A stretch of DNA of 64,000 bases from Macrostomum hystrix (taxonomy: Eukaryota > Animalia > Platyhelminthes): contig CATNEN010000003.1 in assembly GCA_950097015.1 (NCBI GenBank), positions 5,580,001-5,644,000 on the forward strand. Direction: 5' to 3'. The notes beneath the pieces are model-generated. The model saw nothing but the letters and a program-made list of their open reading frames with translations. It did no database searches and was not told where the DNA came from. The stretch's first letter is position 1. Each line of letters opens with the position of its first letter. This document shows positions 5,896 to 63,309 of the stretch, in pieces. A program made the translations under genes and the position numbers.

Positions 5896-5928
5896 AAATG
5901 AATAAATTGCTACGATCGCATGGCATAC

Positions 5929-7018
5929 CCCAGATGCTTTAATTGGCTCTGAATTTTTCGATCGCCTGCAAGGTTGCTGTCTAATTAGGCCAATCCAGAC
6001 CTGTCCTAAGTGACAAGTGTTAGTGTTCAATTCCAAGGTTGCAATAAACTTCGCCTCTGCTTGGCTGTGCACAGAAGCTAGGTGGCCCTTGAACTTTTCC
6101 TCGCAATACAGATTGGCGTCAACGAAGCTCGTGGCAAAGTCGGACAGCCAGTAGCAATGGTCGCCGTAGTGCTCCATCGGTAATTGACACCTGGAAAGAA
6201 TTGGATTGCCAGGAGAGAAACATAGTTACTGGGCAAAACGCTTAAATTCCTAGTCCTTCAGTCCATGTATTTTAGGACCGGCTATGCCAATGACTGTGCA
6301 ATCTGGTACTGGTGTGGTCTAGGTGTGATTTTGTATCTATCTAACTATTGAACAAAGCGCATTTGCAAGGTGTATATGCGAACAGTTTATAGTAGCCAAT
6401 TCTCGACCGGGTCTTGCATACGAATGGCAGCCTCTCGTGGTAGTGCGTGTTGAACCATAATCGATTTTCAGCTCGAAGCGCTCCGGCATGGTTATCCAAG
6501 GCCAGGTCTATGGCCTGCACTGCTGTCTTGTTGAGCTTAGTCGGCTGAAATGATCCGCTATTTTCCTTGACTTGATCCGACTCACTGTCGGTCCATTTGT
6601 AGGTGGATGGATCAGAAACGCGATAATATTCCGTGGCGAACCGTCCAATCCAGACACCGCGACAGTCAGTTAGTCTAGAAACCAGTTGATTCTCCTCCTG
6701 TGACCGGATGGAGACTAGATGGCCGCCCCAGGTGCGACAGGCCTTCTCAGCCGGGTACCAAGGAAGCTTAGTTAGCACGTATCGGTAGCAGTAGTCTCCC
6801 CGCTGCAGCCATGCTTCGTCAGCGGGCTCCGTCATCAGCTCACCTGCGTTGGACGCCGCAGTTGAGCTGTTGTTGGTGGATTCCGAGTCAACTATCAGAC
6901 TTTTAGAGGTTGGACACTGACCAAACGAAGGTGCTATCATTAGTTGGCTAATCAGTACAGTTAAGGCAAGAACTGCCAAGTTTTCCTGAATTTCCTGTCT
7001 TAAACCATGTCGATGCAT
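5929..7018 (-). CDS. Multi-domain C-type lectin protein, 5' part (exons 7018-6408 and 6190-5929; remainder lies beyond the window start)
   Basis: Hydrophobic signal-like N-terminus. CTLD1: WLQRGDYCY..W..AEKACRTWGGHLVSIRSQEEN..VWIG..LPFVCK. CTLD2: YGDHCY..ANLYCEEKFKGHLASVHSQAE..VWIGL. The phase-2 intron CG|GTCGAG...TTTCCAG|G joins as CKTRCQLPME. Next donor GG|GTATGC at 5928. Confidence 0.85.
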
Positions 7019-11400: not shown

Positions 11401-14400
11401 GGTACCAGCTCCACGGCATACACTGGAATGACAAAGGTTCCATGCTTTTTTAAACTCGAAACAAAGTTTGTCTTTGCTGAACGGAGCTACACCACGACTG
11501 TACCTGCTATTATGATTACGCACACAGGTGTGTACATCTGCCCTGACTTCCTCATCGTCAGGCAGTGTACACTCTGACTTCGCCTTAAATGTTGGCCCTT
11601 AAGGGCGTGAATTTCACGACAACTCCCCCCAGACTCCTATCAGCGGCTACGCCACAAATGAATGTGGCCTCGCAGAAGGACTTTGGACCGCTTTGCCACT
11701 CACCTCTACGTAGTAAAGCTTGGGTCTTTTTCAATTCTCGTACTGTGGTTAGGGCCTATCGGTTAGAGCGTCGGACTTAAGACCCGAAGGGCGGGGGTTC
11801 GATTCCTGACTCAGATGGAACAGTTTTTGTCCTCTATCTAGGACTTGCGCTGCCTAATAGTAAACTCACATTTAAAACTGCAAAATGCCACACCAGACGA
11901 TCAACTCACCATGTCTGCCAGGTCAAACATATTGTTGATATACAGCAGGTTCTGCCACCAGCTGTTGAAGCAGTTGGCATCGAGTCCGTGTCGCTGATAT
12001 CTTGGCCCGTCGTACGCATACTGAATCAACGTGGTGTAAACTCCCAGGATTATCATGTATGGCACAGTCAGCCTGCAGTACCTGTGCATATAGAACCTCA
12101 ACCAGTTAATTCGTTTCAACTGTCCTCGACGCCTATCAACTTCGCGCAGAAACAGGTAAGTTGCCAACAGGCCGCTGAGTACAAAGAACGTGTCAACAGC
12201 CACCGTGGCATTTAGAATAGCCTGGAACGTCCAGTCATTCAGCCATTTCGGCACCAACTGACCTAGATTTGACGCACTGATTAAGCCAATGATATAGGTG
12301 TGACCTAGGATGACCCAGGACATTGAAATGAACCGGATTCCGTTGATACAGCCGAGGCTGCCGCCAGCCTGACCTTGGTCGAGAAGCTTGACGGCATTGG
12401 CGCGAACAGAGAAGCACAGGAGGATTGCCCTGATGATGCCTGAGATTACAAGATTTTCAGGTAGAAATAAGACATGTTTTCTACAATAGTTAATAAATTA
12501 ATGAATTATGGATTACACCTTCCCAAATCTATCCAGTGTCTTACCTATCCCGTGGGGGGTCGGTGGCAGAGTGGCTAACGCGTTTGCCACTTGCACCACA
12601 GTCCCTAAGTTCGATTCCACGGCGAGGCCACATTTATTTGGGGCGCAGCCGCGGAGAGAAGGCTTGGGGGCTTGTCGTGCAATTTACGCCCTTGAGGGCC
12701 AACCTCCAAGGCACAGTTCGAGTGTACACTGTCTGACGATGAGAAAGTCAGGGCATATGTACACACCTGTGTGAGCGTGTGCCTGCGTACGGTATCTGTG
12801 TGCGTGTGTGCTCAGCGAAATAGGCAGAATTGCCTCCTCGCTGGCTGCGGGTCTAGTGTCACCAAACTATTTGTCATTGCCCGCAGCCCTCCTGCAATTA
12901 TTATTATTATTATTATTACCTATCCCGTGTCTTACCTATCCCGTGTCTTATCTATCCCGTGTCTCATCTATCCCGTGTCTTATATCTCCCGTGTCTCATC
13001 TATCCCGTGTCTTATCTATCCCGTGTCTCATCTATCCCGTGTCTCATCTATCCCGTGTCTTATCTATCCCGTGTCTTATATATCCCGTGTCTCATCTATC
13101 CCGTGTCTCATCTATCCCGTGTCCTACCTATCCCGTGTCTTATATATCCCGTGTCTCATCTCTCCCGTGTCTCATCTATCCCGTGTCTCATCTATCCCGT
13201 GTCTTATATCTCCCGTGTCTCATCTATCCCGTGTCTTATCTATCCCGTGTCTCATCTATCCCGTGTCTCATCTATCCCGTGTCTTATCTATCCCGTGTCT
13301 CATCTATCCCGTGTCTCATCTATCCCGTGTCTTATCTATCCCGTGTCTTATATATCCCGTGTCTCATCTATCCCGTGTCTTATCTATCCCGTGTCTCATC
13401 TATCCCGTGTCTCATCTATCCCGTGTCTTATCTTGTAGCTGACTTGCTACAAATGTTGCTGTTAAATTTAAGAGTCGGCAAAAGCTTGAGCTTGTTTATT
13501 TAGTTTTGTCGTGGGGTTACATTTAAGTCTTAACCGGGCAACTGTACCTATCGATAACAAGGGTCATAGACAAATTAGCCGTAAGGGGGGAAATAAAAGT
13601 ACCATTTGAATCTTTAAATATTAAGAGTTAAAAGAAAGAAGTGAATTTGCTGCTACAAGATACTCCCCCCACCCAAAACGGAGTTTATGCAAAGGTTTTG
13701 ATTGTTGTTATGAAACAGTTAGAAAACGATGCTTTTCAGTTAGGTTAATAATGGTTCAGTTGCGTAAAACAGTTTAACAGATGGTTCTGTGGAAAAACGA
13801 ACGTGGGAAGCGGTTTTAGCACGCATGTTTGCTGCCGGTGGGTTTTCCGGTGTTACAGTAGTTGCTGGTGCTTTGCTAATTGGTACCGGTGCTGGGAGTG
13901 TAGCTGGTTTCACTCGATCAATAGACACTACAGAAGGCTTGCCGTTGATTTCCAATGTAAATGTCGTTTCGTGTCTCTCCAGCACTGCATAGGGTCCCTG
14001 GTAGGGTGCTTCTAGGGGACGTCGAACTCGATCTAGTCGCAACCAGACGTGGGTGCATGCAGCCAAGTCTGCTGGCAGATGAATTCTTACCTCGCGCGTT
14101 CGTGGTTGGCGATACGGAAAAAAAAGTTGGTGCAGTCTTGTGGAAAGTTCCTTGACAGAGGAGGTGTCGGCAACTACAGGTGGGACTAATGGTTGTTCAC
14201 CGGTAACGATGGAGAATGGCGATGCACCTGTCTCGTCTGCAAAAATGCGCATTCCGAGAAGCACGATGGGTAGCTGCTGCAGCCAGTTCTTGCCACGTGC
14301 TTTCAGCCCGGACTTTAATGTTCGGTGGGTTCGCTCGACGATGCCATTTGCCCTCGGATTGTAGGCTGAAGTGCGGATGTGATGGATTCCGAGCAGTGTC

Positions 14401-17400
14401 GCCAGGTTTTGCATGAGCTCCGCGCGGAACTGCGCGCCTTGATCGGTCACCAGCGTCAATGGTGGGCCAAACCGAGAAATCCAGGATTCTAGGAAGGCGC
14501 ACGCGACTGAAGTGGCGGTGATGTCAATGAGAGGGGCAGCTTCAATCCAACGTGAATATGCATCGACCATTGTGAGCAAGTAGCGAGGTCTGGGACTAAC
14601 GTCGGTCGACTCTGGGGGTGGCAGTGGTCCGACTAAATCGATATGGACCGTCGTGAAGCGTTGAGAGGGTGCTGGAAGCTGTTGCAACGGGCGTTGGACG
14701 TGACGACCTGTCTTGCACTGCTGGCACTGTTGACATTCGGCTACCCACCTTTGGATGTCGTTAGCCATACCTAGCCAGAAAAAACGATAAACGATGAGTC
14801 GTTGCGTGGCTTTGCGGCCAGGATGTGCGAATGCATGCAGCGAGTCAAAAACAGCGCGTCGGAGAGTCCTAGGGATGACGGGACGTGGGTTTGTCTGCGA
14901 GATTTCGCATCGCAGTGGGAAGTCCTTGATTCCAATGTCGAAGTTGCTGAAACGGCCTGTCTGGGGTTCATCCTCCGGGTTTTCCTTCTGTGCTCGTGCA
15001 ATGGCTGGCAGGTCCACACATTGAGGAAGGTCAGACAGCAGTCGAATTGTGGTTGGTGGCGGGTTCTGGGATGGGTAAACCGGTCGTGATAGCGTGTCGG
15101 CTACGATGTTGTCCTTGCCGGAAATGTGGATGATGTCGCTCACAAACTCCGTGATGACGGATAGCTGGCGTTGTTGTCGATCGGAAAATCGTTCTTTCTT
15201 ATTTCTAAACGCTCCGCTGATGGGCTTGTGGTCGCAGAACACTGTGGTTTGTTGGCCTTGGATCATGTATTTCCATGTCTTGACCGCAGCAAAAATAGCC
15301 AGCAGTTCCCGATCAAAAGTGCTGTAAGCTGCTTCCGTGTCAGAGAGCTTGCGAGAGTAGAATGCCAATGGGGAAGATTGCTCGGCTACCACCTGATGCA
15401 ATGCTGCGCCGATGGCAGTGGCGCTGGCGTCGGTTGTGATTGTGAATGTGGCATTGGCTTGAGGAAAAGTCAGGGTGACTGCGTTCGCCAGACTGTCCTG
15501 GAGTTCTTTCCAAGCATCGTCGTGTCGCTTCGTCCAATTGAATGGCGCCGTGACGAGTTGTCGTAGCGGGGTGGCGATCTCAGCATAATTAGGAATGCAC
15601 CGCTGATAAAAACCGAACATGCCAAGGTAGCGCCGTAGTGATTGCATGTCAGTGGGAGCCTCGAGTTTCCGCAGTGCTTCGACTCGGTTCGGAAGCGGTC
15701 GGATGCCGTCAGCAGTGACGAAGTACCCAAGAAACTCCACTGAATCGCGAAAGAAATGGCACTTTTCAGAGTTGACGCCCAAGCCTTTGTCGCTTAGACG
15801 TCGCAGCACCTCTTCGATGTGCGCCTGATGTTCTTCGCGTGACTGGCTGTGTACCAAGATGTCGTCGATGTAAGATGTTACGAACGGGAGGTCGCTAAAG
15901 ACGGAATCTACGTATCGCTGGAATGTGCTGGCGGCGTTTCTCAGGCCGAATGGCATGCGAATGTATTCGAAAGAACCAAATGGCGTGCAAATCGCTGTTT
16001 TCTCAACATCTTCGTCTGCAATCGGGATGAAGTGGTAGGCCTTAACCAGGTCAAGGGTGCTGAACACTTTCGCTCCATGTAGACGATGGTGAAAATGATT
16101 GATGTTCGGAATAGGGTAACGGTCTGGTTTGGTTGCCGCGTTCAGTGCTCGATAATCTCCACATGGTCGCCAGGAGCCGTCCCTCTTCTTCACCATGTGA
16201 AGCGGGGAGGCCCAGGGACTGGCCGAGGGGCGAACGATACCGAAGCGGAGGAGCTTGTCGAATTCCAACTTTGCGATTTCGTACTTCGCTGGGGATAATG
16301 GGCGAGGTCGACAGAATACAGGTTCACCTGTCGTCTCGATGCGGTGTCGCACAGATGTGGCGGGTGGCGCGGTGTAGTCCGGTGCCTCCAGTAATCGCGG
16401 GAAATTTTTGAGTGGTGTGGTCGGTTCCAGTTGAGTTGTGGCGTTGATTTTGGGAAGTTGCGCACTCGATGGACTGAGGTTGGCGTAAAGAGATGTCGCT
16501 GGGTCTTGTATACGTCGTGTGTTCAGATCGATGAGGAAGCCAAACTTGAGGAAGAAGTCGGCTCCGAGAATTGGCGCAGTGTCGGTAACGATAAATGATG
16601 CAGGGTAGGGTCTACGGAGACCAGGAATTGTAAGAGTGACGCAGCATTGGCCGAAAGTTGGGATTTCTCGACCATCGATGCTACAGAGTTTCACATGTGT
16701 GGTTGTCAACAGATTTTGAGGAGCGAATTTTAGTGGGAGCAGCGATCGCTCAGCACCGGTGTCAACTATAAAGGAAACGGGTGAACGGAGAATTTGACAC
16801 AACAGTAATAACGTGTTGGCCTGGGAGGGGTCGCGGCTCGGCCGAGGCACGTGACCCACTAGTTTGACGCCGCTGTCGGCGTTGGGCTGCTTGAGCGGGA
16901 TTGAGTCGGGGTAGGTTGGCGGCTGGCGAGTGTTATCGTCGGCTTCGGTCCAGGCCACTGACACCACGGTCGGCAGGTGCGAGCTTCCGCGGCGTAGTAC
17001 AGGTGACCGTTGCAGATTTTAGGGCGGCGGAGAGAATTTCGGTTGGCTTGAAAATCAACGCGTCTAGCTCCTCGAAACGGACTTTTCTTGTTTCCTGCGG
17101 ACAACTGGCCGGGTGCGATGGCCCGGTTGATTGGGGCGAACGGCGTTGTGCTGGCTGACACGGCCAGCATGCTGTCGGCGATTTTAGAGAAAGCATCCAG
17201 CGGCGCGTCTTCGTGTCCGACTAATGCGGAACGGATGTGGGTCGGGAGTGCCGACAGGAGCCGAGACTTGACGATGCTATCATCGACTTGCAGACCGACT
17301 TCGCCGAACTTGCGCTTGATGTCGTTAACCAGTTGCGATGGACGGCGGTCGCCGAGTTCAACTGCAGCCAGTGCCTCTTCGATGCGCTGGTGCCGGTTTA

Positions 17401-43649: not shown

Positions 43650-47442
<3,793 letters not shown>

Positions 47443-48194: not shown

Positions 48195-48785
48195 TTGGAA
48201 TCGTACTAGGAATCGTAGCTAGAAAGGTAGCAAGAATCGTAAGGGAATCGTAGCTAGAGGGTAGCTAGAATCGTACTAGGAATCTTAGCTAGAGGGTGTA
48301 GCTAGAATCGAAGCTAGAATCGTAGCTAGGAAGGTAGCTAGAATCGTATTAGGAATCGTAGCTAGAATCGTACCAGGAATCGTAGCTAGAGGGTAGCTAG
48401 AATCGTACTAGGAATCGTAGCTAGGGGGTGTAGCTAGAATCGAAGCTAGAATCGTACCAGGAATCGTAGCTAGAGGGTAGCTAGAATCGTACTAGGAATC
48501 GTAGCTAGGGGGTGTAGCTATAATCGAAGCTAGTTGCTAGAGGGTAGCTAGAATCGTACTATGAATCGTAGCTAGAGGGTGTAGCTAGAATCGAAGCTAG
48601 AATCGTACCAGGAATCGTAGCTAGGAAGGTAGCTAGAATCGTATTAGGAATCGTAGGAATCGTACCAGGAATCGTAGCAAGAATGGAATCAGAAAATATA
48701 TCTAGAAAGAAACTAGGAATCGTACAAGGAATCGTAGCTAGAATTAAATCAGAAAAAATAACTAGAATGAAACTGATAATCGTAC
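48195..48785. repeat. Complex GAATCGTAGCTA-type minisatellite downstream of DYRK1
   Basis: Mixed 10-13-bp subunits (GAATCGTAGCTA, GAATCGTACTAG, GAGGGTAGCTA). The same family recurs at 60275-60611. Confidence 0.9.
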
Positions 48786-50812: not shown

Positions 50813-52866
50813 ATGTCCACACGAATGTTTGAGCTCATCCTCAACAATGGGCAGCTCTCAAAAACAGACCTGCAATCGCAATATGACATTGCTGGCATCA
50901 TGCAGACTAGCAAGGAGTGGCTGGCATTCGTCAAATGCATCTCACAGGACGATGCTGACGACCTTCGGTTGGCCTCCGAGCACCTCAACTGGAAGGAGTT
51001 CTTGCAGAGCGCCGACATAAGCGGTGCGTGGTCCGATTGTGACTTTGCCGAGACAGCGCCAAAGCTGCTACTGGCTCACAATGCCGAGGTGGGAAATTCA
51101 AAGCACCCGTTTCCGACCAACCCGTTCTTCGTCGCCATCTTCTACAATGCCCAGCGCTGCCTCAAGTTCATGCTCGAGTCCGGCGTCGACTTCTCGACAA
51201 TCAACGACAACGGGTTCACAGCGTATCATGTTCTGATGAGCGCGATCCGGTTCTTGGCTGATGAAAGCGGTGAGAACGCTTCGTGCGTGACTGACGAGTG
51301 CAAGAGCCTCATAAACCTGTTCCATCAGACCCTATTCTCCGTTGAGCAGCAGCAGAGAATGCTGCAGGTGACTTGCAAGCTCGGCATGAGACCTTTGAGT
51401 TGGGGAGTGTTCCTAGGTCTGGCGAACTACGTTGAGTACATGATGGCCTACTGCGTTCCCACTTCAGTCGTTCAGTCCGATGCGGTGGGTCTAAACGAGC
51501 GCATCACGATTGACGTCTCCGACATGATCGGTGAAAACACCTGTTTCTACACGAGTCCGATCTGTGTTCTCCTGGACATGTATGGTCAGAGTACGTTGTC
51601 GGAAATTAAGGCACTCGGTATTTTCCGCACCGGCTTCATTTGGAAGCAGTGGGCCGAGGTGCTCTACGACCGAAATAGATTTTTCACTGCTCTGTTATTG
51701 TCTAACGTGATCTGTCTCACAGTAGCGACAGTGTCAGTTGTTGGTGGCGGTGTCAACGAGTTTCTGAGGGCCAGGTGCTCAGGAAAAAGTTTTCCATTTC
51801 CAGTTGGAGTCATTTTCATTTTGGTTTACTGGTTCTTCTACGCCACCTTTGGCACTGCGGCTAGCGGCTATAGTTTATGGCGGAAGGAACAGTACAGGTG
51901 GGTAAATTAAACTTTCCCTATAACTTAAATTTAATGATTGAGTTTCATAGTTATTTCAAGTTCAAGACGGCTAGAGAATAATTTGCTTCACAATTACTGT
52001 TTCGTTCTAGAAAAAAAATAGGCTATCCAGTGTCGCCTAGGCACGCCCACGTGGACATGCTGTTCTGGTTTCTGCCCTGGATGTTGTCGATTCCTATTTC
52101 GACATTCCTGCTATGGCTCTACATTGATACCAGGAGAAGTTGCATGCTCTTTGGAGAGAACATTTGTGCGGCAAGTGGCTGCTGCATTCTGCTCTTGCTG
52201 CTAACGAGTGTGTCTCTGATTGTAGCTTACCTTCGGCTAGTCCCGTCGCTAACAACACTAATGACAAGCATGTACAAGAGCATCGGCACATTCACGGTGT
52301 TCATCATGCTCTACCTGGTCTTGACTGGTGTTTTTACGCGAATATTTCAAGTGCGTCTATTCTCCGCAGAAATCGATTCGGGTATTGACAGAAGCAATTT
52401 CACTTTCAGCAGTGAAAGCAGAGTCAATATTGTAGACTTCTTCACTGCATTCTACCAGACATTTCTGGTCTCGCTAAACATAATCGACACGAACATGTTT
52501 TCTGCCTCCAGCGATCGAGTAGACATGAAAATCACGCACATGATCTACATCCTGTTTGTTCCTGTACTGTTTTTAAACTTCGCCATCGGCATCCTGGCAT
52601 CGGTGGTATCGCATGTCCACGAGCACAGCGCAGAGAACCGGTACCTTCTGATCCTGTCCGTGGCGGAGTTCTCAGAAATGATTCTGTCGCCAACTCGCTC
52701 GGCGATGCGCAAGCTGCTCGGTCGCAACGGTGATCAGATTGTGCTCCGATGCTGCAGGCCGATGAGCAAGAGAAGTCGGCTGCTGGCAATGAACAGGGAT
52801 CTATTGTCTACGGTTTGTGAGGCTAAAAAGTTTTCAAAAGAGATTAGCGTCGGCGCCCAATACTAA
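50813..52866 (+). CDS. Divergent TRPV-like 6TM cation channel, copy 1; exons 50813-51897, 52011-52866
   Basis: Degenerate ankyrin repeats (NPFFVAIFYNAQRCLKFMLESG, NGFTAYHVL, GMRPLSWG), six hydrophobic segments, pore FYQTFLVSLNIID and S6 VLFLNFAIGIL, aligning gaplessly by eye to TRPV5/6. Single phase-2 intron. Confidence 0.75.
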
Positions 52867-53302
52867 ATCAGTCTGCTCTAATTGATGAACTCTTTTTTGT
52901 GTGTATAAAAAGGCTTTCTATTCATCTTTTATACAAAAACGTGAAACAACAAGACACCAGACATTACACTTCTCATAAGTAACTAAGCGATTCATACTGC
53001 AAATATTATTTCAACTGAAAACATTGTACACATTTTAGTCACCATAGCCTAATAATTACCACTGAGCCAACTCAAACCATTTTTTCTTCTCGTGTGAAAT
53101 ATTCAAATCGCTGTTAACCAATGGCCAGTAATCTTCACTAACCGCACTTAAGGGCTAACCAATGAAGCTATGCCATCCAGATTTAAAACTGCATCGTATG
53201 TGAGTATTTAAACAAAATCTCAGAAATCGATTGCAGTCGTCCATACTTCGTTGTTGCAAACAAGGCCCTACAAAACCATAAAAGCCATCGACAATTGCAA
53301 GC

Positions 53303-55640
53303 ATGGCCAAGGTGCACGAAGGGCTGCCAAATCGAATCGATTCGAGAATGGAAATTACAAAGCAAATTTCAAGCAGAAAACAGTGGCTGGCTTTCGTCAA
53401 GTGCATCGCGCAGGACAATGTGGACGACTTGCAGTCGGCTTCAAAACACCTCAACTGGACGGACTTCCTGCAGAGCACCGACGCCAGTGCCGCATGGTCT
53501 GAATGTGACTCGAGCTTCACTCACGCCTTCAAAGTCGGCGACTCAAAGCACCCGATGCCGACCAACCCGTTCTTCGTCGCCATCTTCTACAATGCCCAGC
53601 GCTGCCTCAAGTTCATGCTCGAGTCCGGCGTCGACTTCTCGACAATCAACGACAACGGGTTCACAGCGTATCATGTTCTGATGAGCGCGATCCGGTTCTT
53701 GGCTGATGAAAGCGGTGAGAACGCTTCGTGCGTGACTGACGAGTGCAAGAGCCTCATAAACCTGTTCCATCAGACCCTGTTCTCCGTTGAGCAGCAGCAG
53801 AGAATGCTGCAGGTGACTTGCAAGCTCGGCATGAGACCTTTGAGTTGGGGAGTGTTCCTAGGTCTGGCGAACTACGTGGAGTACGTGATGGCCTACTGCG
53901 TTCCCACTTCAGTCGTTCAGTCCGATGCGGTGGGTCTAAACGAGCGCATCACGATTGACGTCTCCGACATGACAGGCGAAAATCCGGCCTTCTTCACGAG
54001 TCCGATCAGCGTTCTGCTGGATGTCTACGGCGAGAACTCACTGGCAGAGATCAAAGCAGTCGGCATCTTTCGGACTGGCTTTTTCTGGAAGCAATGGGTT
54101 GAGGCTCTGTATAATCGTAATCGACTGCTTTTTGTGATGTTATTCATCAATATTTTTGCTCTGTCCCTGCTGAGTGTTACCTTCTCTGGAGCCAATCTGA
54201 ATGACTATCTTAGAAGTCGATGCGCTAATGAACTGCACGCGCCTCCCTACGGACTTTTAGCAGTTTTGGTTAACTGGCTGCTTTCTGGACTCTTTGGACT
54301 GTTCTGCATCATCTATGGTCTCATGCGAAAGGAGCGGTATCGGTAAGTTGTTCATTGTTGTAAGCTGTTCATTATTTTGGCTGCGGGTCTATAGTGTTGC
54401 TTAATTGTGTGCCAGTGCCCACGGCGTTCCTGGAAATATTATTATTATTAATATTATATATTTACCAAGTAGAGTAAAGAAGTTTTTTATTACTTATAGT
54501 GCGTCAGGAGAAAACTAAAATAAAGTAGAAATGAGACCTAGCTGAGTTGGGCCAGATGCACAGCCAGACAGCCGCAGCTAATTCTTGGCGCTTCTAAAGG
54601 TTGCGTAAAGCTGTTCAGTCCATGGACTGGTTGGCCGCCACACCTTCTATTCCGGGTCTTGCTCATGGGCAAACATTTTTTTTGGGCCTAGAGACTAGAA
54701 CTCTCGACCTGTCAGTCAAACTTCTGAAGCTCTAACCACAGGACTGTAAGCTCTCTTAGAAGGAATAAATCAGTATTGTCTCGCCATGGTATATTGTTTT
54801 TTCAGCCTGTCTGTTGGCTATCCTTGTACGCCGAGAAAAGGCCTAGCCGACATTGTCGCCTGGTACCTGCCCATTGCATTCTCGACTCCCACCTCATGCT
54901 TCCTTCTATGGCTCTACCTGGACACTGATAGAAGCTGCGTCACATTTGGTGTGCAAATTTACCAAGTCAGTGGCTGCTGTATCATGCTGCTTCTAGTGGC
55001 AGCCAATTCATTGTTAATTAGCTACCTGCGTCATATTCGATGCCTCATCACAATTATGAGCAGTCTGTACAGAAGCATTGTTGCTTTTGGACTATTTGTC
55101 CTGATGTACATGATGCTCGTTGGTGTGTTTGCTCGTATATTTCAATCGAGTTTTGCTTTTTCAAAAGCGTTAAACTCGACCAGCACACGACCTGACGACA
55201 TCTACGAGTTTCTCAAAGCCTACTATCAGACCTTTCTGGTTTCGCTAAACATTGTGGACCCTGGAGTATTTTATGCAGCTGGTGATCGAATCGACCTGGT
55301 CATCACTCACGTTTTCTACATCCTGTTTGTCCCTGTTCTGTTCATCAACTTCGTAATTGGCATTCTGTCGTCCATTGCGTCGCATGTACAGGAGCACAGT
55401 GTCGAAAATCGCTACATGCTGATGCTAGTCGTGGCGGAATTTGCAGAAACTTGCTTTTTCATTCGACACAAGCTGACTTTGTGGTGCCAGCCTCGGCAGG
55501 AGATTTTGATCTGTCTCTGCAGACCAGTCAGCAAACACAGCAGACTTATAACGAAGTGCAATGACTCATTTGAGTCTGCGCTGGGTGAGTTGAGTTACGA
55601 ATTGCCGACCTATTCAATCTATCGGTACGCATTAAATTAA
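53303..55640 (+). CDS. Divergent TRPV-like channel, copy 2; exons 53303-54342, 54806-55640
   Basis: Paralog of copy 1 with the same intron position (YR|..GYP); pore YYQTFLVSLNIVD. Confidence 0.75.
54540..54748 (-). mobile_element. SINE family B, diverged copy in the copy-2 intron
   Basis: TGGGCCAGATGCACAGCCAGACAGCCGCAGCT..GCTGTTCAGTCCATGGACTG..GCTCTAACCAC. Confidence 0.65.
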
Positions 55641-56624
55641 TGGTATCGTTGCATCGCTTTAACACTCGTTTTTCAGAACCTGACACTAACAGCGGAATTG
55701 TAATTTCTAATTTATCAGACGAAGAATTCCAATCACAGACAACTGCTTGTTAGATTGTGGATTTTTGACTACTAAATTTTTACCAAAAACTTGATTAAGA
55801 TGTGTACAGTAAAAAACAAACTCATATCCAGACTCTATATATTAATTATGATTATTTTACGCATATGTCTATGGCAAATCCGTGCTTTTTCTAGAACTTT
55901 AACTATAAGAACACGTAGTAGTTTTTTTAAATGAACTCTTGTTTATCGATCTGATTGTGTTTCTTCCAATAACTCTTTGGCTTAAAATTAAGTCGATAAA
56001 TTCGTCATTTACGACACTCAGAGTCAGAGACCGAATGTAATAATCCGGAGCTTTAGCTTTTCTTCTTCTTATAACTGACGTACGGCTAGTTTTACTAAAA
56101 TCTATCTTTAATTACACTTGATCACTATTTTTCACTATACAATTAACGAAATACACAGCCAAATATCACAAACAATTGTCTCTGACATTAATTAATTTAG
56201 TGGAACTTTGTGCCGCCAATGCAAAATAACTTGATAGCTCTTCATTATCTGTGCAGTTTCTGCTGCATTCCATCAGGAGTCTCATTGTTCTGCGGTTGAG
56301 ATTATAGATTACTGATTGGGATTCTAACTATAATTAAGTGTGGCAATTCGTCAATTTGTCCGGCCGTCAGACAATAGACCCAATTACAAAACTGATTTGA
56401 TGAATAAAATGATCAGATTGAGTTATAAAGCACGGAAATGAATAAGCTAATTGTTTAGTTTTACAGGGCCTGGTAGTTAATAAAGTACATATATATTTGA
56501 GTGGCTACTCAGACTCTGCAGCTCTCTTTAAGGAGACGTTCAATTAGTACAACACAAGAACTGGCTTGAATACCTGTCAGATATTTCAACTACGACTATA
56601 TTGTTCGATTTCCTTTGTTTAGTC

Positions 56625-56840
56625 CAGGGGTAGGCAAACTTATTTGCTGGCGGGCCAAAGAGAGAACCTAAAAGACGACAGCGGGCCGCATTAACTGCAT
56701 AAATATGAGATAGGGGAGAGATGAGATTAGACACGGGAGAGATGAAACAGGACTCTGTAGATGTCAGAAGGGGCAACGGGCCGGATTTGGGAGCTTCGAG
56801 GGCGGCATCTGGCCCGCGTGCCGGAGTTTGCCGACCCCTG
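56625..56840. mobile_element. hAT/Charlie-like MITE
   Basis: TIR CAGGGGTAGGCAAACT...AGTTTGCCGACCCCTG; 8-bp TSD GTTTAGTC/CTTTAGTC (7/8); GGGCCG subterminal motifs. Confidence 0.85.
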
Positions 56841-57507
56841 CTTTAGTCTGTTGTGTATTGTTCGCGTCAATACTTAGAAAATGTTATACTCTCTGCTTCC
56901 GCGTTGTCAGGTGCATACCATTGTTGGATGCTCTGGAAGTTTCAAGATGTGTTTAAATAATGGAACATCTAAAATCTGAAATTCCAATATATTCCAATAT
57001 TCCAATGTTCCAATATATTTAATCCACTGAGCTAGCAACAAAAGCTAAATTGTACAGCATTTATTGGTAATTTAGAGTTCTTCCTGTTCGGTTTTTAGCC
57101 ACCTAAATGGTCAGCAAGAGCAGCAAATGCAGATAAAAAACTTAACTTCAATTTAAATTGCATAATCCAGTCAAATGAAACTTCGTTCAAAGTGCACCTT
57201 TTCCTCAATCATATCGGGATATGGCTGTGTAAAACGTAAGAACATCTGATTATTGAGGATCAATAAAGCGGTCGCTTGACCCCGAGTAAACGCTATGCAA
57301 ACTGGTCTTGACCAATCGAGGCGAAGCGATAACCAGTTTGGCACTGGAAGCCAATGGTTAGTAACTTACCAAGGATAAATTTCTCATTAATAATTGAGTG
57401 ACATTCGATTATCAACTGAAGTTAAGCTGGTAGAGCCAGGACTAAGTTCTACGCTCGCAGTTGTAAAATACAGTGGTCAGAAAAAATATTGTTACAATTG
57501 ATTGTAA

Positions 57508-59865
57508 ATGACTTCTAAAGTAATCCAAGTGACGGAAAGAAGCTGCAAAAGCTTGAAGCTTAACGCCTCAGTGAATGCTTCCAAAATCCCCCTAAGCCAA
57601 AAACAGTGGCTGGCTTTCGTCAAGCTAATCGCGAATGATCACGTCGATGAGTTGAGATCGGCTTCAAAACACCTCAACTGGACGGACTTCCTGCAGAGCA
57701 CCGACGCCAATGCCGCATGGTCTGAATGTGACTCGAGCTTCACTCACGCCTTCAAAGTCGGCGACTCAAAGCACCCGATGCCGACCAACCCGTTCTTCGT
57801 CGCCATCTTCTACAATGCCCAGCGCTGCCTCAAGTTCATGCTCGAGTCCGGCATCGACTTCTCGACAATCAACGACAACGGGTTCACAGCTTATCATGTT
57901 CTGATGAGCGCGATCCGGTTCTTGGCTGATGAGAGCTGTGAAAACGCTTCGTGCGTGACTGACGAGTGCAAGAGCCTCATAAACCTGTTCCATCAGACCC
58001 TGTTCTCCGTTGAGCAGCAGCAGAGAATGCTGCAGGTGACTTGCAAGCTCGGCATGAGACCTTTGAGTTGGGGAGTGTTCCTAGGTCTGGCGAACTACGT
58101 GGAGTACGTGATGGCCTACTGCGTTCCCACTTCAGTCGTTCAGTCCGATGCGGTGGGTCTAAACGAGCGCATCACGATTGACGTCTCCGACATGACAGGT
58201 AAAAATCCGGCCTTCTTCACGAGTCCGATCAGCGTTCTGCTGGATGTCTATAGTCAAACCACTTTGACGGAGATCAAGAGAATCGGCATTTTTCGTACAG
58301 GTTTTATTTGGAAGCAGTGGGTTGAAGCCCTGTACAATCGAGGCCGAAAGTTCAGTGCAACATTTTTCCTCAATGCAATCTTTCTGACCATCGGCAGTGC
58401 AGCGTTTTCCGGCGCGAATGTGAATGACTATCTCCGCAATCGCTGTGCAAGTCAAGCCTACACGTTTCCTTTCGCACTCACTGTTATTCTCATCGACTGG
58501 CTGGCTACTGGGTTTTTAGGCTTCGTTGGAATTGCATACGGGATTGCGCGTAAGGAAAGCTACAGGTAGGGCGATCGACCAAGGATGCTGCCCTTTAGAT
58601 TTGTAGAAGAATATTGAAAATCATATTTTAAGCGTCAAATTGCCAGTACCATGTTCGATTTAAAACCAAGCTTATAATTTTTTTGTTTTTTAAATGTTTG
58701 GATGAGGTTGTAGCCTAGCCCTTAGAGCGTCATACTTACGACTTGAAGATCCGGGGTTCGATTCCTGTGATTCCACTGAAACAGTTTGTGTTCTTTAGCA
58801 AGACACGTAACTCTGCATTGCTTCAATTCATCCAGCTGGGTTAATTAAGGGTGGGTGTGGTGTCCTCCCAGTCCATGGACTGAACAGCCCTATACGAATC
58901 CTTCATATGGTCGCACAATTGCTGTCGGCTGCACATTTGGCCGAATTTGGGCAGGTGTAATCAATGATTACTATTATCAATTATCATTAAGCGATGAATA
59001 ATGAATTAATGAAAGCGTTATTTTTGTAATGTTATAGCTTTTTACTTTCAGAAAGTCCGTTGGGTATCCCAGAGCACCAAGGCGTGGTTTAAACGACATC
59101 CTTTATTGGTACCTGCCATACGTCTGGGCATGCCCAACAACCAGCCTCCTGCTCTGGCTCTACCTCGATCCTGACAGAAGTTGCGCTTTACTAGGCGATA
59201 AGATCTACCCAGTCAGTGGCTGCTGCATTTTGATCCTGCTTGTAGCCGCCATTTCTCTCCTAGTCAGCTACCTTCGCTTGCTTCCATGCCTGACCACCAT
59301 GATGAGCAGTCTGTACAGAAGCTTGCTCGCGTTTACATTTTTCATCATGATGTACATGATGCTGACCGGATTCTATGCCAGAATATTTCAGTCCAGCTTC
59401 GTCTTTTCGAGAGCGTCAAACTCATCCAGCACACGACCTGACGACATCTACGAGTTTCTCAAAGCCTACTATCAGACCTTTCTGGTTTCGCTAAACATTG
59501 TGGACCCTGGAGTATTTTATGCAGCTGGCGATCGAATCGACCTGGTCATCACTCACGTTTGCTACATCCTGTTTGTCCCTGTTCTGTTCATCAACTTCGT
59601 AATTGGCATTCTGTCGTCCATTGCGTCGCATGTACAGGACCACAGTGTCGAAAATCGCTACATGCTGATGCTAGTCGTGGCGGAATTCAGCGAGACGATT
59701 CTAGTTGTGCTCCACCGGATGTGCGACAGATGCTTCGGTCGGCAAGAAATCAAAATTAAACTCTGCAGGCCCATGAAGAAGCAAAGTAGACTTCTTGAGC
59801 ACTGCAATGAGTCTCTTGAATCGTTGCTCTGTGAGAGAAGCACGCTCGATACTCATCACTTCTAA
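57508..59865 (+). CDS. Divergent TRPV-like channel, copy 3; exons 57508-58565, 59052-59865
   Basis: Paralog of copies 1 and 2 with the same intron position (AG|GTAGGG...TTTCAG|A) and an intact frame. Confidence 0.75.
58706..58975 (+). mobile_element. SINE family B, near full length, in the copy-3 intron
   Basis: GTTGTAGCCTAG..TTAGAGCGTC..GGTTCGATTCC..CCAGTCCATGGACTGAACAG..GTGTAATCAAT. Confidence 0.8.
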
Positions 59866-61107
59866 GTGCAAGTCTATTTGCTGTCATTCGATGACGATCC
59901 AGGGATCGAGTTACACCCTGGTAGTTTTTGTTGAAAAATTCAGTAATAAATTGTACTGAATAGTACGACGTCGAAAACGTTATGAATATTACGCAGATTT
60001 CTCTACTTTGTAAGTACATTATAAGTACTTTTTCATTGTATTGCATTGCAATGAGAAAGAACCTCGACTTCTATTCTTAAAGTTGTATTTTCTCTATTAA
60101 TTTCATTTCATAATTTCATAGAACATTATAAATTTAAACTTTTCAACCATTTATAATGACATGAAAATGTTTTCAACAATAAATAGCTATTCAATTCTGC
60201 AATTAAAAGATAATTTCTCCAACCTAAACGCTAGCCTTTTAGTTTCATTTCTTAGAAAGTACATAGCGTACATATCGTACCAGGAATCGTAGCTAGAGGG
60301 TAGCTAGAATCGTACTAGGAATCGTAGCTAGGGGGTGTAGCTATAATCGAAGCTAGAATCGTACCAGGAATCGTAGCTAGGAAGGTAGCTAGAATCGTAT
60401 TAGGAATCGTAGCTAGAATCGTACCAGAAATCGTAGCTAGAGGGTAGCTAGAATCGTACTAGGAATCGTAGCTAGGGGGTGTAGCTAGAATCGAAGCTAG
60501 AATCGTACCAGGAATCGTAGCTAGAGGGTAGCTAGAATCGTACTAGGAATCGTAGCTAGGGGTGTAGCTAGAATCGAAGCTAGAATCGTACCAGGAATCG
60601 TAGCTAGGAAGGCACGCTCGATACTCATCACTTCTAAGTGCAAGTCTATTTGCTGTCATTCGATGACGATCCAGGGATTATGATTGTAGGTAGCTGAGGC
60701 AGGGATTACGATCCAGGGACATCGAGTTACCCCCCTGGTAGTTTTTGTTGAAAAATTCAGTACTATAATAGTACTGAATAGTACGACGTCGATAATGGCG
60801 TCGACGTCGAAAACGGTATGAATATTACGCAGATTTCTCTGCTTTGTAAGTACATTATAAGTACTTTTTCATTGTATTGCATTGCAATGAGAAAGAACCT
60901 CGACTTCTATTCTTAAAGTTGTATTTTCTCTATTAATTTCATTTCATAATTTCATAGAACATTATAAATTTAAACTTTTCAACCATTTATAATGACATGA
61001 AAATTTTTTCAACAATAAATTGCTATTCAATTCTTCAATTAAAAGATAATTTCTCCAACCTAAACGCTAGCCTTTTAGTTTCATTTCTTAGAAAGTACAT
61101 AGCGTAC
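59840..61107 (+). repeat. ~430-bp direct duplication (59840-60271 and 60612-61107) separated by a GAATCGTAGCTA satellite block (60275-60611)
   Basis: GCACGCTCGATACTCATCACTTCTAAG...ACATAGCGTAC occurs twice. The second copy carries short insertions. Confidence 0.92.
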
Positions 61108-61962: not shown

Positions 61963-63309
61963 TCATCCTTCGAGTAGATTTGCCATATCCACCACGCCTA
62001 GGCCCATTAGTATGTCCCACAATATCAGGCGGCCGGAGACCATGTAGCTCTGGCTCACGACCGACACGGATGCCACAGTAGGTAGCTGAGGCAGGTTAGA
62101 CCAATGGGACCTTAATTGAAGCAGGAACTCATCAGTCAGACCCAGGTCATGCAGGCCATCTTGAAGTTTTCGCAGGTTTTCAGACGGAAGAGTGCTCATG
62201 GGTTCGAGAAGACGGCAATGTCTTCGCAGTAGGCTCCTAACAGAGCAGCTGAGAGTCACCTGCAGCCACATGTCGAGGTGCTCGTGCAAGTCGATGCCAA
62301 CTAGACAATGTTGCAAAAGAAAGCGACACGCATCAACAGATTCTGCTCTGGCGGCCAAAGCCAAGGGCGTCAAGCGATCGCCAGCGCTTTGGCGGAGGTC
62401 CCAGTCAAGTTCAAGGCTCTGTCGGAGCGAAAATTCGTGAACGGCCTTCAGCATCAGGATTTTATTTTCGCGGGCCATGTAGTGAAGTGCCGAGAAGCCA
62501 TCGCAGTCGCTGGTATATAGAGCAGCAGTGAAGCATGCCGGAGCCAGCTCGTGTCGGTTCAGCAGGTCGGCCAGCGAATCCAGGATCAAATCCAGGATCC
62601 TGCTACTAGATCCAAGTGCACACAGGTGCAGGCAATTCCTTCCGCTAGCGTTGTAGTGAAAGCAGACAAAGCGACTAAATTGAAGATCTAGAAGTTGCTG
62701 TGCAACAGCTTCGACTCCGCCAGCAATGGCCAGCATCAGCGCATCATCGCCGCTAGATGTGCGATGAAGAAGGGCTCTGGGATTCCTGCGAGCGGCCAAA
62801 TCCAGTAGATGCGCTGCTGCTCTCCATTTGCCTTGAACTAGTGCCGCTTCAATAGGCGTCCGACCTTGGCGATTCAGCACACTAAGCAGCTCTGGCGTCT
62901 GCTCCAACAAATTCGTGATGACAGCGACCGAGTTACCATCAGACTCGCTGTAGTTGAAGTAGGCGCACTTCACAGCCAAATAGTAACGCCGCAGCGAATC
63001 CAAATGTTCTCGAAGGAAAATAATCGCGTCGGGTTTATCTGCCACCGTCGCGTTCTGCGCGTCAATCGTTCTGCATTCCATTTTTCTTTTTTCATAACTG
63101 CCGTAGGCTGCAAGCCCTTTCGAAAATTTTGGCAACTGTTCGTATCTTATGGTCACAGAATCAGTTTCGTGCTGTACATGATGAGTCATGTCTAAGACTT
63201 CCAACACTCCAAATAGCACTCCTAACATGTACCTTAAGAGACTCGGTTGTCGCTCAAACTGATTTCGAGACACGTTGAGGCTATCCCCGCCAACGCGAGA
63301 GAAAATTTT
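61963..63309 (-). CDS. Ankyrin-repeat protein, last coding exon (probable upstream exon 63833->64000)
   Basis: GRTPIEAAL, GDDALMLAIAGG, GRNCLHLCA, GFSALHYMAREN, LTPLALAARAE. In-frame acceptor TTTTAG at 63310; candidate phase-0 donor TTG|GTAGAT at 63832. Confidence 0.75.
   Translation of the reverse strand, partial: KIFSRVGGDSLNVSRNQFERQPSLLRYMLGVLFGVLEVLDMTHHVQHETDSVTIRYEQLPKFSKGLAAYGSYEKRKMECRTIDAQNATVADKPDAIIFLREHLDSLRRYYLAVKCAYFNYSESDGNSVAVITNLLEQTPELLSVLNRQGRTPIEAALVQGKWRAAAHLLDLAARRNPRALLHRTSSGDDALMLAIAGGVEAVAQQLLDLQFSRFVCFHYNASGRNCLHLCALGSSSRILDLILDSLADLLNRHELAPACFTAALYTSDCDGFSALHYMARENKILMLKAVHEFSLRQSLELDWDLRQSAGDRLTPLALAARAESVDACRFLLQHCLVGIDLHEHLDMWLQVTLSCSVRSLLRRHCRLLEPMSTLPSENLRKLQDGLHDLGLTDEFLLQLRSHWSNLPQLPTVASVSVVSQSYMVSGRLILWDILMGLGVVDMANLLEG

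What the first reader, a model, noticed from the sequence alone, without database searches (positions are those of the whole stretch)
51098..59687. Block-wise gene-conversion mosaic: homogenised ankyrin and pore/S6 modules around diverged S1-S5
Seen: a ~430-nt ankyrin-coding block is nearly identical in all three paralogs (51098-51527, 53543-53972, 57766-58195; I count about 5 differences between copies 1 and 2). Copies 2 and 3 also share a ~260-nt pore-S6-TRP-helix block (55180-55441 vs 59426-59687, about 3 differences). The intervening S1-S5 region, N-termini, C-termini and introns are heavily diverged even at synonymous sites, with sharp boundaries. Inference: selective ectopic conversion keeps the assembly and conduction parts compatible, while the S1-S4 region (the ligand pocket in TRPV1-type channels) diversifies. 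This would give a receptor repertoire with constant and variable modules.
Basis: partly seen in the sequence, partly recalled or inferred. Interest (0 to 1): 0.8.

Follow-up and report, generated by a model that had tools for sequence, protein, structure and literature searches.

The report
Flatworm channel genes swapping domain blocks
Three neighbouring flatworm genes for predicted TRPV-type ion channels share near-identical ankyrin blocks, and two share a pore block, likely copied between them by gene conversion, while the membrane core differs between the genes and, in the one gene with a clear counterpart in a related species, is strongly conserved; this is a clean new case of a pattern known from Toll-like receptors.

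Summary
Three tandem TRPV-like genes (g1-g3; closest proteins from Macrostomum lignano) share a 430-nt block with 5, 10 and 5 differences, and g2/g3 share a 262-nt block with 3. dS is 0.02-0.06 inside the blocks and 0.9 to saturated in nearly all regions outside. Contigs of public runs from two studies break at the block edges with no other letters, so assembly error is very unlikely. The tracts are staggered: g2/g3 share 593 nt, and a probable fourth paralog outside the window shares about 255 nt. Block A covers the last ankyrin repeats plus the linker beta-hairpin; block B covers pore helix, filter, S6 and TRP helix. The 'variable ligand module' reading fails: g1's S1-S5 is 88% identical to its M. 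lignano ortholog versus 75% for block A, and dN is below dS. g1's pore is not homogenised, and the filter is TRPV5/6-like. M. lignano proteins hint at independent homogenisation of both blocks (protein data only). Best reading: recurrent interlocus gene conversion, filtered by selection that protects each paralog's S1-S5 core, as in TLR1/TLR6. Co-assembly is untested.

The parts
50813..52866 (+). g1, TRPV-like channel gene, 646 aa; CDS 50813-51897 + 52011-52866; start codon inferred (first ATG of the open frame)
   Evidence: open spliced frame; intron skipped with GT..AG in contigs of X2 and X3 and X5; ortholog P0007, 411 of 525 aa identical
53303..55753 (+). g2, TRPV-like channel gene, 631 aa; CDS 53303-54342 + 54806-55584 + 55677-55753; start codon inferred
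   Evidence: intron 1 bridged by an X5 contig, intron 2 skipped (GT..AG) in X2, X5, X6
57508..59865 (+). g3, TRPV-like channel gene, 623 aa; CDS 57508-58565 + 59052-59865; intron predicted from GT-AG sites and homology, not seen spliced
   Evidence: open spliced frame, intron at the same codon position as in g1 and g2
51098..51527 (+). block A in g1 (g1 codons 96-239): last ankyrin repeats plus linker beta-hairpin
53543..53972 (+). block A in g2, three-way core; no site is unique to g2
57766..58195 (+). block A in g3, three-way core
53435..54027 (+). longer g2/g3 tract A (partner 57658-58250), 8 differences in 593 nt
53447..53701 (+). stretch probably also shared with a fourth paralog outside the window: one contig enters at 53447 and one leaves at 53701, going on at about 83% identity; that both are one locus is inferred
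   Evidence: X1 records 3 and 7, X2 record 13; only three paralogs lie in the window
55180..55441 (+). block B in g2: loop before the pore helix, pore helix, filter, S6, most of the TRP helix
59426..59687 (+). block B in g3, 3 differences from g2
54028..55179 (+). unconverted core of g2 (end of linker, pre-S1, S1-S5, intron 1); equivalents in g1 and g3; silent sites at or near saturation between paralogs

Best explanation
Three tandem genes for predicted TRPV5/6-like channels carry near-identical ankyrin/beta-hairpin blocks (all three) and pore-S6 blocks (two), likely written by repeated gene conversion between neighbours, and selection likely removes any conversion that would overwrite a gene's own S1-S5 membrane core. 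Shown: near-identity including silent sites, staggered tract ends, presence in read-derived contigs, opposite trees for block A and S1-S4, and stronger ortholog conservation in S1-S5 than in block A for g1. Inferred: (1) the duplicates are old, g1 having split from g2/g3 before the split from M. lignano; (2) repair of breaks from a neighbour 2-7 kb away copies tracts of a few hundred bases; (3) tracts in the ankyrin region, and in the pore for g2/g3, are tolerated because these parts are interchangeable, and each event keeps them similar enough for the next; (4) tracts entering S1-S5 damage a paralog-specific function and are purged, after which silent divergence also blocks pairing there. The blocks are thus constant within a species and drift between species, while S1-S5 marks each paralog's identity. 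That conversion made the blocks is about 0.93 likely; the confidence below is for the whole chain.
For: dS 0.02-0.06 in tracts vs pS 0.53-0.95 in the regions between and after them; run test p<1e-4 in 3 of 3 pairs. Contigs of X1 end or begin about 30 nt inside each block edge with 0 other letters (8 of the 8 X1 pieces shown); single contigs have depth about 71 (unique), 143, 227, 234 (block A) and 112 (block B; 1.58x against 1.60x predicted for two copies). The g1/g2 block-A junctions recur in runs of a second study (X5, X6, X7). Tree for S1-S4: (g1,P0007) vs (g2,g3,P0003), three species-grouped trees rejected at p-AU <= 2e-6; first half of block A: that ortholog tree rejected at p-AU 0.003. 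g1/P0007: 163 of 186 in S1-S5 vs 92 of 123 in block A. M. lignano P0007/P0003: 54 of 63 in the first half of block A vs 37 of 62 in the second (p=0.001; 4 of 4 control pairs p>=0.30); P0002/P0004-N: 53 of 61 in the pore vs 84 of 140 in block A (p=1e-4; 4 control pairs p=0.06-0.67). GC3 in block A is 0.74-0.76 vs 0.49-0.56 in the core, as GC-biased conversion would give. The linker is highly conserved as protein (dN 0.11-0.18) yet silent-diverged (pS 0.53-0.95), so amino-acid conservation alone does not place the tracts. Precedent: PMC2077338, PMC3924837.
Against: Only g1 has a clear ortholog; P0003 is about equally far from g2 and g3 (261 and 258 of 413), so fast S1-S5 change in the g2/g3 clade is not excluded. 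The M. lignano evidence is protein-only, from partial or fused gene models; the (P0007,P0003) clade has 75% bootstrap and ties with two other placements (p-AU 0.66, 0.41, 0.40), the ortholog tree is not rejected for the second half of block A (p-AU 0.051), and 54/63 vs 45/61 is not significant (p=0.12). The chance that three tracts all miss S1-S5 under random placement is only about 0.04. The GC excess at fourfold sites is significant in 1 of 3 genes, and block B shows none. Block A contig depth (3.2-3.3x) exceeds the 2.4-2.6x predicted from three copies, which a further copy or coverage bias could explain; the tool warns that contig depth is not a copy number. X1 may be the sample the window was built from, and block B's g3 side is covered only in study P1.
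Confidence: 0.6

Rival explanations
1. Selection for homogeneity: the paralogs form mixed tetramers, and conversion is favoured because it keeps the ankyrin/beta-hairpin skirt and the pore-S6 bundle compatible while the subunits bring different S1-S5 cores.
For: Block A ends 5 codons after the second hairpin strand (g1 228-234 vs 239), and this sheet takes part in intersubunit contacts with the ankyrin domain in TRPV3 (PMC10218142). Block B is pore helix to TRP helix. TRPV5 and TRPV6 form heteromers (PMC12799467). The same regions recur in M. lignano pairs. g1 and g2 are both spliced in the same runs and single contigs run from g1 into g2.
Against: g1's pore/S6 (53 of 80 aa with g2, 67 of 80 with its ortholog), its loop before block A, and the third strand of the sheet (3 of 7 identical g1/g2) are not homogenised. 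S5, part of the pore domain, is excluded in all pairs. Tract ends are staggered and some fall inside predicted helices (53435, 53701, 55441). Block A changes faster between species than S1-S5.
Confidence: 0.2
2. Purely neutral: conversion continues only where the DNA is still similar, and S1-S5, termini and introns escaped early by chance, with no selection on where tracts lie.
For: Conversion needs similar sequence and stops once divergence or indels build up (PMC3924837). g1's 5' edge lies about 20 nt from a 21-nt insertion. The placement test is marginal (p about 0.04). Tracts are nested, as shrinking tracts would be.
Against: S1-S5 of g1 is under strong constraint (88% to its ortholog) while only about 44% identical to paralogs, so overwriting it is unlikely to be neutral. 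No indel lies at the g2/g3 tract edges in the alignment. The same two regions recur in other pairs.
Confidence: 0.15
3. Assembly or polishing artefact: reads of one paralog overwrote the others.
For: X1 may be the source sample; no long reads could be laid; the whole genome is not held.
Against: Read-derived contigs break at the block edges and show no diverged version of any block; depth rises stepwise; an X5 contig from a second study carries the g1-type letters at 53878 and 53885 within the shared block.
Confidence: 0.02
4. RNA-level constraint: an antisense RNA over g2 pairs with the shared block in all paralog mRNAs, so nucleotide identity is kept for co-regulation.
For: X2 and X3 contigs skip 54085-54180, a canonical GT-AG intron on the minus strand, 58 nt beyond the g2/g3 tract.
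Against: Seen in 2 of the 5 spliced runs laid, one study only; whether it reaches into block A is unknown; a genomic deletion allele is not excluded; it does not explain block B.
Confidence: 0.03

Closest known systems
Mammalian TLR1/TLR6 domain-restricted gene conversion (PMC2077338; abstract and first part of the Discussion read)
   Same: Tandem paralogs; one region more alike between paralogs (over 96%) than between orthologs (80%); the rest more alike between orthologs; independent events per lineage; explained by shared partners versus paralog-specific recognition.
   Different: There one 300-aa tract with nearly fixed ends in nine species and known ligands and partners; here two separate blocks around the core, three or four paralogs, staggered ends, one other species seen as proteins only, no function known.
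Divergence peaks under conversion: red/green opsins, RHD/RHCE, protocadherins (PMC3924837; passages read)
   Same: Selection against conversion preserves a paralog-specific region among homogenised sequence.
   Different: In opsins the introns are converted and a small exon stays divergent; here introns and flanks are unalignable (apart from a 50-nt inverted match) and the converted tracts are islands in saturated sequence.
TRPV5/TRPV6 and invertebrate TRPV5/6-like or TRPVC/D channels (PMC9664204 passages; PMC12503276 abstract; PMC12799467 passages)
   Same: TRPV fold (Foldseek E 2.6e-8 to TRPV6; VIA Z 18.5, rmsd 5.4, 464 aligned to TRPV2); L-N-I-V/I-D filter aligned with TRPV5 L-T-I-I-D; tandem duplicates.
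   Different: 10-14% identity; shorter ankyrin domain; subfamily not placed by tree; PMC9664204 has 0 occurrences of 'conversion' or 'platyhelminth' in its main text.
Macrostomum lignano uncharacterised 'Ion_trans domain-containing' proteins P0001-P0009 (e.g. PAA64149.1, A0A1I8HKA1, A0A1I8HLH7)
   Same: Same family; P0007 is the g1 ortholog (411 of 525 aa); two paralogs are fused in one gene model, which suggests a tandem layout there too.
   Different: Their shared blocks are older or shorter (86-87% protein identity); no function or evolutionary analysis found in the searches made.

Membership tests
Interlocus gene conversion (concerted evolution) | Near-identity at silent sites inside a tract, high divergence outside | tested here: met
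   dS 0.02-0.06 vs pS 0.53-0.95; run test p<1e-4 in 3 of 3 pairs
Interlocus gene conversion (concerted evolution) | Tree of the tract differs from tree of the rest | tested here: met
   ortholog tree alone accepted for S1-S4, rejected (p-AU 0.003) for first half of block A; not rejected for second half (0.051)
Interlocus gene conversion (concerted evolution) | Identity exists in the organism's DNA, not only in the assembly | tested here: met
   short-read contigs only, no long reads
Interlocus gene conversion (concerted evolution) | GC enrichment in converted tracts | tested here: inconclusive
   GC3 higher in block A in 3 of 3 genes (not independent), GC4 significant in 1 of 3, none in block B
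TLR1/TLR6-type domain-restricted conversion | Unconverted region more alike between orthologs than between paralogs | tested here: met
   S1-S5 163 of 186 for g1/P0007 vs 81 of 186 for g1/g2; testable for g1 only
TLR1/TLR6-type domain-restricted conversion | Independent conversion of the same region in several lineages with conserved ends | tested here: inconclusive
   one other species, proteins only; same regions, different ends, clade support 75-85%
TLR1/TLR6-type domain-restricted conversion | Converted region binds a shared partner; unconverted region sets specificity | not testable with these tools
   needs expression, co-assembly and recording
TRPV channels | Six transmembrane helices, pore helix, TRP helix | tested here: met
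   model of the relative P0002 (pLDDT 70.3); fold matches to TRPV1-6 and Nanchung; Pfam Ion_trans below cut-off in g2 and g3, no hit for g1 exon 2
TRPV channels | Linker beta-hairpin plus C-terminal third strand | tested here: met
   strands 207-213, 216-222 and 581-587 in the model; feature described in PMC10218142
TRPV channels | Six ankyrin repeats | tested here: not met
   model residues 19-30 align from TRPV2 about 145, TRPV1 about 193, TRPV5 100; only about 235 residues precede the hairpin end; about four repeats inferred (repeat numbering recalled); Pfam Ank hits below cut-off
TRPV1-4 (vanilloid/heat type) | I-G-M/L-G-D/E selectivity filter | tested here: not met
   motif from PMC12799467; g1-g3 have L-N-I-I/V-D
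TRPV5/6-like | L-T-V/I-I-D type filter ending in aspartate | tested here: met
   L-N-I-I/V-D aligns column for column with TRPV5 L-T-I-I-D, N for T; P0002 has N for the D
TRPV5/6-like | Calcium selectivity, constitutive opening, tetramer | not testable with these tools
   no functional data
TRPVC/D or TRPVL clade | Placement in a metazoan TRPV tree | not tested
   no reference set was fetched

The most novel reading that the evidence does not exclude
Macrostomum keeps an interchangeable-parts system for TRPV-like channels: repeated conversion standardises the cytoplasmic assembly skirt and the pore within each species, so that old paralogs with distinct, conserved S1-S5 cores co-assemble into mixed tetramers. 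If so, tandem TRPV duplicates elsewhere that look like independent recent duplications (such as vertebrate TRPV5/6 pairs) could partly be old pairs masked by conversion.
Probability: 0.2. Interest if true: 0.7.

Novelty: new member of a known kind. Interest (0 to 1): 0.45.

Why it matters
It is an unusually sharp natural chimera experiment on a TRP channel: evolution shows which parts can be exchanged between paralogs (ankyrin/hairpin, and the pore for one pair) and which cannot (S1-S5). That points to where paralog-specific function lies in an unstudied flatworm TRPV-like family, in a genus with laboratory models. It also warns that whole-gene trees of tandem TRP genes can misdate duplications. 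The mechanism itself is known from TLR1/TLR6 and opsins, which caps the surprise.

Tried and rejected
No whole genome is held, so other paralogs were seen only as contig pieces. No run was on record as RNA; X2, X3, X5, X6 are treated as RNA-derived because they skip introns, X7 by its breaks. g3 has no cover in X5 and X6 and little in X2: no conclusion on its expression. The single-sequence fold of P0002 was useless (pLDDT 41); phmmer of P0002 against solved structures found nothing, the profile did. A third homolog search added nothing. A metagenome scan found no relative (one search failed on the alignment). No spliced-leader loose end appeared at g2 among those shown (5 not shown), so an operon is not claimed. 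No long antisense ORF across the minus-strand splice (longest from ATG 83 aa). No complex prediction was run: a TRPV tetramer would pass by likeness to solved structures. Positive selection on S1-S4 was sought only as regional dN/dS (all below 1); site models were not possible with three sequences and saturated dS. The ankyrin ORF at 61963-63309 is not a paralog. Literature searches listed no paper on conversion among TRP paralogs or on this family, judged from titles and abstract openings; of the listed papers only PMC11526382 was opened (passages), and the library lacks most subscription papers. No supplements were read.
Full report
Observation. The blocks lie in three same-strand genes with open spliced frames and a first intron at the same codon position. 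Contigs of public runs confirm g1's intron and g2's first intron, and reveal a second g2 intron at 55585-55676, giving 631 aa. g3's intron was not seen spliced. dS is 0.02-0.06 in block A and 0.04 in block B, while pS is 0.53-0.95 in all other regions apart from the g2/g3 N-terminal part (0.20); runs of identical codons among same-amino-acid codons beat all 20,000 shuffles in 3 of 3 pairs. Introns and upstream regions share only a 50-nt inverted match.

Not an artefact. Eight runs from two studies hold the stretch; six were laid (both tables of pieces are cut, 32 shown and 33 more hidden). In X1 the eight long pieces shown match the window with 0 other letters; those that meet a block stop about 30 nt inside its edge, as expected when several loci share the same words. 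Single-contig depth is about 71 in unique DNA, 143-234 in block A and 112 in block B; two copies predict 1.60x for block B and 1.58x is seen, while block A is deeper (3.2-3.3x) than three copies predict (2.4-2.6x). The tool warns that such depth is not a copy number, and X1 may be the source sample, but the g1/g2 junctions recur in the second study and an X5 contig carries g1-type letters inside the block.

Anatomy of the tracts. They are nested, not one module. The three-way core is g1 codons 96-239; g2/g3 share 593 nt with 8 differences; two X1 contigs suggest a fourth paralog outside the window that joins at 53447 and leaves at 53701. g2, the middle gene, has no private site in the core, which fits exchange with both neighbours. 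GC3 is raised in block A but the fourfold-site test is significant in only 1 of 3 genes.

What the proteins are. Close relatives were found only in M. lignano. A profile of the family hits TRPV3-6 and Nanchung structures (best E 2.4e-10); language-model features point to TRPV-like clusters (0.97). A model of the relative P0002 (pLDDT 70.3, 13 sequences) matches TRPV chains over its length. Mapped to the window genes, block A is the last ankyrin repeats plus the linker hairpin, ending 5 codons after the second strand; block B runs from just before the pore helix to near the end of the TRP helix; S5 is outside. The filter, L-N-I-I/V-D, aligns with TRPV5 and not with TRPV1-4. The ankyrin domain is short, about four repeats (numbering recalled).

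The test that changes the reading. P0007 is g1's ortholog. It matches g1 at 163 of 186 residues in S1-S5 and 67 of 80 in the pore, but only 92 of 123 in block A (p=0.006, sites treated as independent). In S1-S4 the tree groups g1 with P0007 and rejects three species-grouped trees; in the first half of block A that tree is rejected. So S1-S5 is old, paralog-specific and conserved, not a fast-changing pocket, and regional dN is below dS throughout. This is shown for g1 only: g2 and g3 have no one-to-one ortholog in the data.

Recurrence. M. lignano P0007/P0003 are 86% alike in the first half of block A but 60% in the second; P0002 and the upstream part of P0004 are 87% alike in the pore but 60% in block A; eight control comparisons show no significant step (p 0.06-0.87). 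This suggests independent conversion of the same regions. Against it: proteins only, a truncated and a fused gene model, 75% and 85% bootstrap, tied root placements, and p=0.12 for paralog versus ortholog distance. The far proteins P0057, P0066, P0070 and the fragments P0008, P0009 were left out of the trees. Random placement would miss S1-S5 three times with probability about 0.04.

Mechanism. Most likely (0.6): repeated conversion between neighbours, tolerated in interchangeable parts, purged in S1-S5, and then locked out there by silent divergence. Rivals: selection for co-assembly (0.2), which fits the domain limits and the known hairpin-ankyrin contact (PMC10218142, passages) and TRPV5/6 heteromers (PMC12799467, passages) but not g1's separate pore, loop and third strand; neutral escape (0.15); antisense pairing (0.03); artefact (0.02).

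Comparison. TLR1/TLR6 show the same logic in nine mammals (PMC2077338, abstract and first part of the Discussion; PMC3125219, abstract and outline), and divergence peaks under conversion are reviewed in PMC3924837 (passages). A survey of metazoan TRPV treats tandem TRPV5 pairs as independent duplications and does not use the word conversion (PMC9664204, passages). A coral TRPV5/6-like channel passes calcium (PMC12503276, abstract). Operons are common in M. lignano (PMC8629364, passages). Searches listed no report of this in TRP channels; the library is partial and no supplements were read. Earlier scan notes held nothing on this locus; two notes on the same genome also call it a flatworm.

Verdict. 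Real, clean, a new member of a known kind; the constant/variable repertoire reading is half right. Interest 0.45.

Noticed in passing
window 54085-54180 (- strand): Contigs of X2 and X3 skip 96 nt whose ends form a canonical GT-AG intron on the minus strand (depth 65 vs 49.6 and 26 vs 17.3), suggesting a spliced antisense RNA over g2 exon 1; absent in X1, X5, X6, X7 pieces shown; a deletion allele is not excluded.
   Followed up: partly
window 52867-53302: Only 436 nt separate g1 from g2, and single spliced contigs (X2, X3, X5) run across; M. lignano also has two paralogs fused in one gene model. Operon or read-through is possible but not shown.
   Followed up: partly
window 51103-51150 and 52545-52580 (loose ends): Contig ends point to at least one more, distant paralog elsewhere in the genome.
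   Followed up: no
window 59840-60271 and 60612-61107: The end of g3 and its 3' flank are duplicated at 85% identity behind a short tandem-repeat array (about 60280-60610) that also matches 48367-48624.
   Followed up: no
window 61963-63309 (-): 448-codon open frame with ankyrin repeats (Pfam Ank_2 E 5e-13), unrelated to g1-g3.
   Followed up: no
window 13740-17018 (-): 1092-codon pol frame of an LTR retrotransposon: protease, reverse transcriptase, RNase H, integrase.
   Followed up: no
window 1-6200 and about 44700-45700: Large tandem arrays: 274 copies at 21-nt spacing at the start, and an array related in inverted orientation to 12911-13433.
   Followed up: no
window about 54600-54640, 56625-56845, 58720-58980: High-copy interspersed repeats in the g2 and g3 introns and between g2 and g3 (very high contig depth).
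   Followed up: no
runs X1 and X2: X2 is coded as a different organism from X1 yet its long contigs match the window with 0 other letters, so it was not counted as a second species.
   Followed up: no
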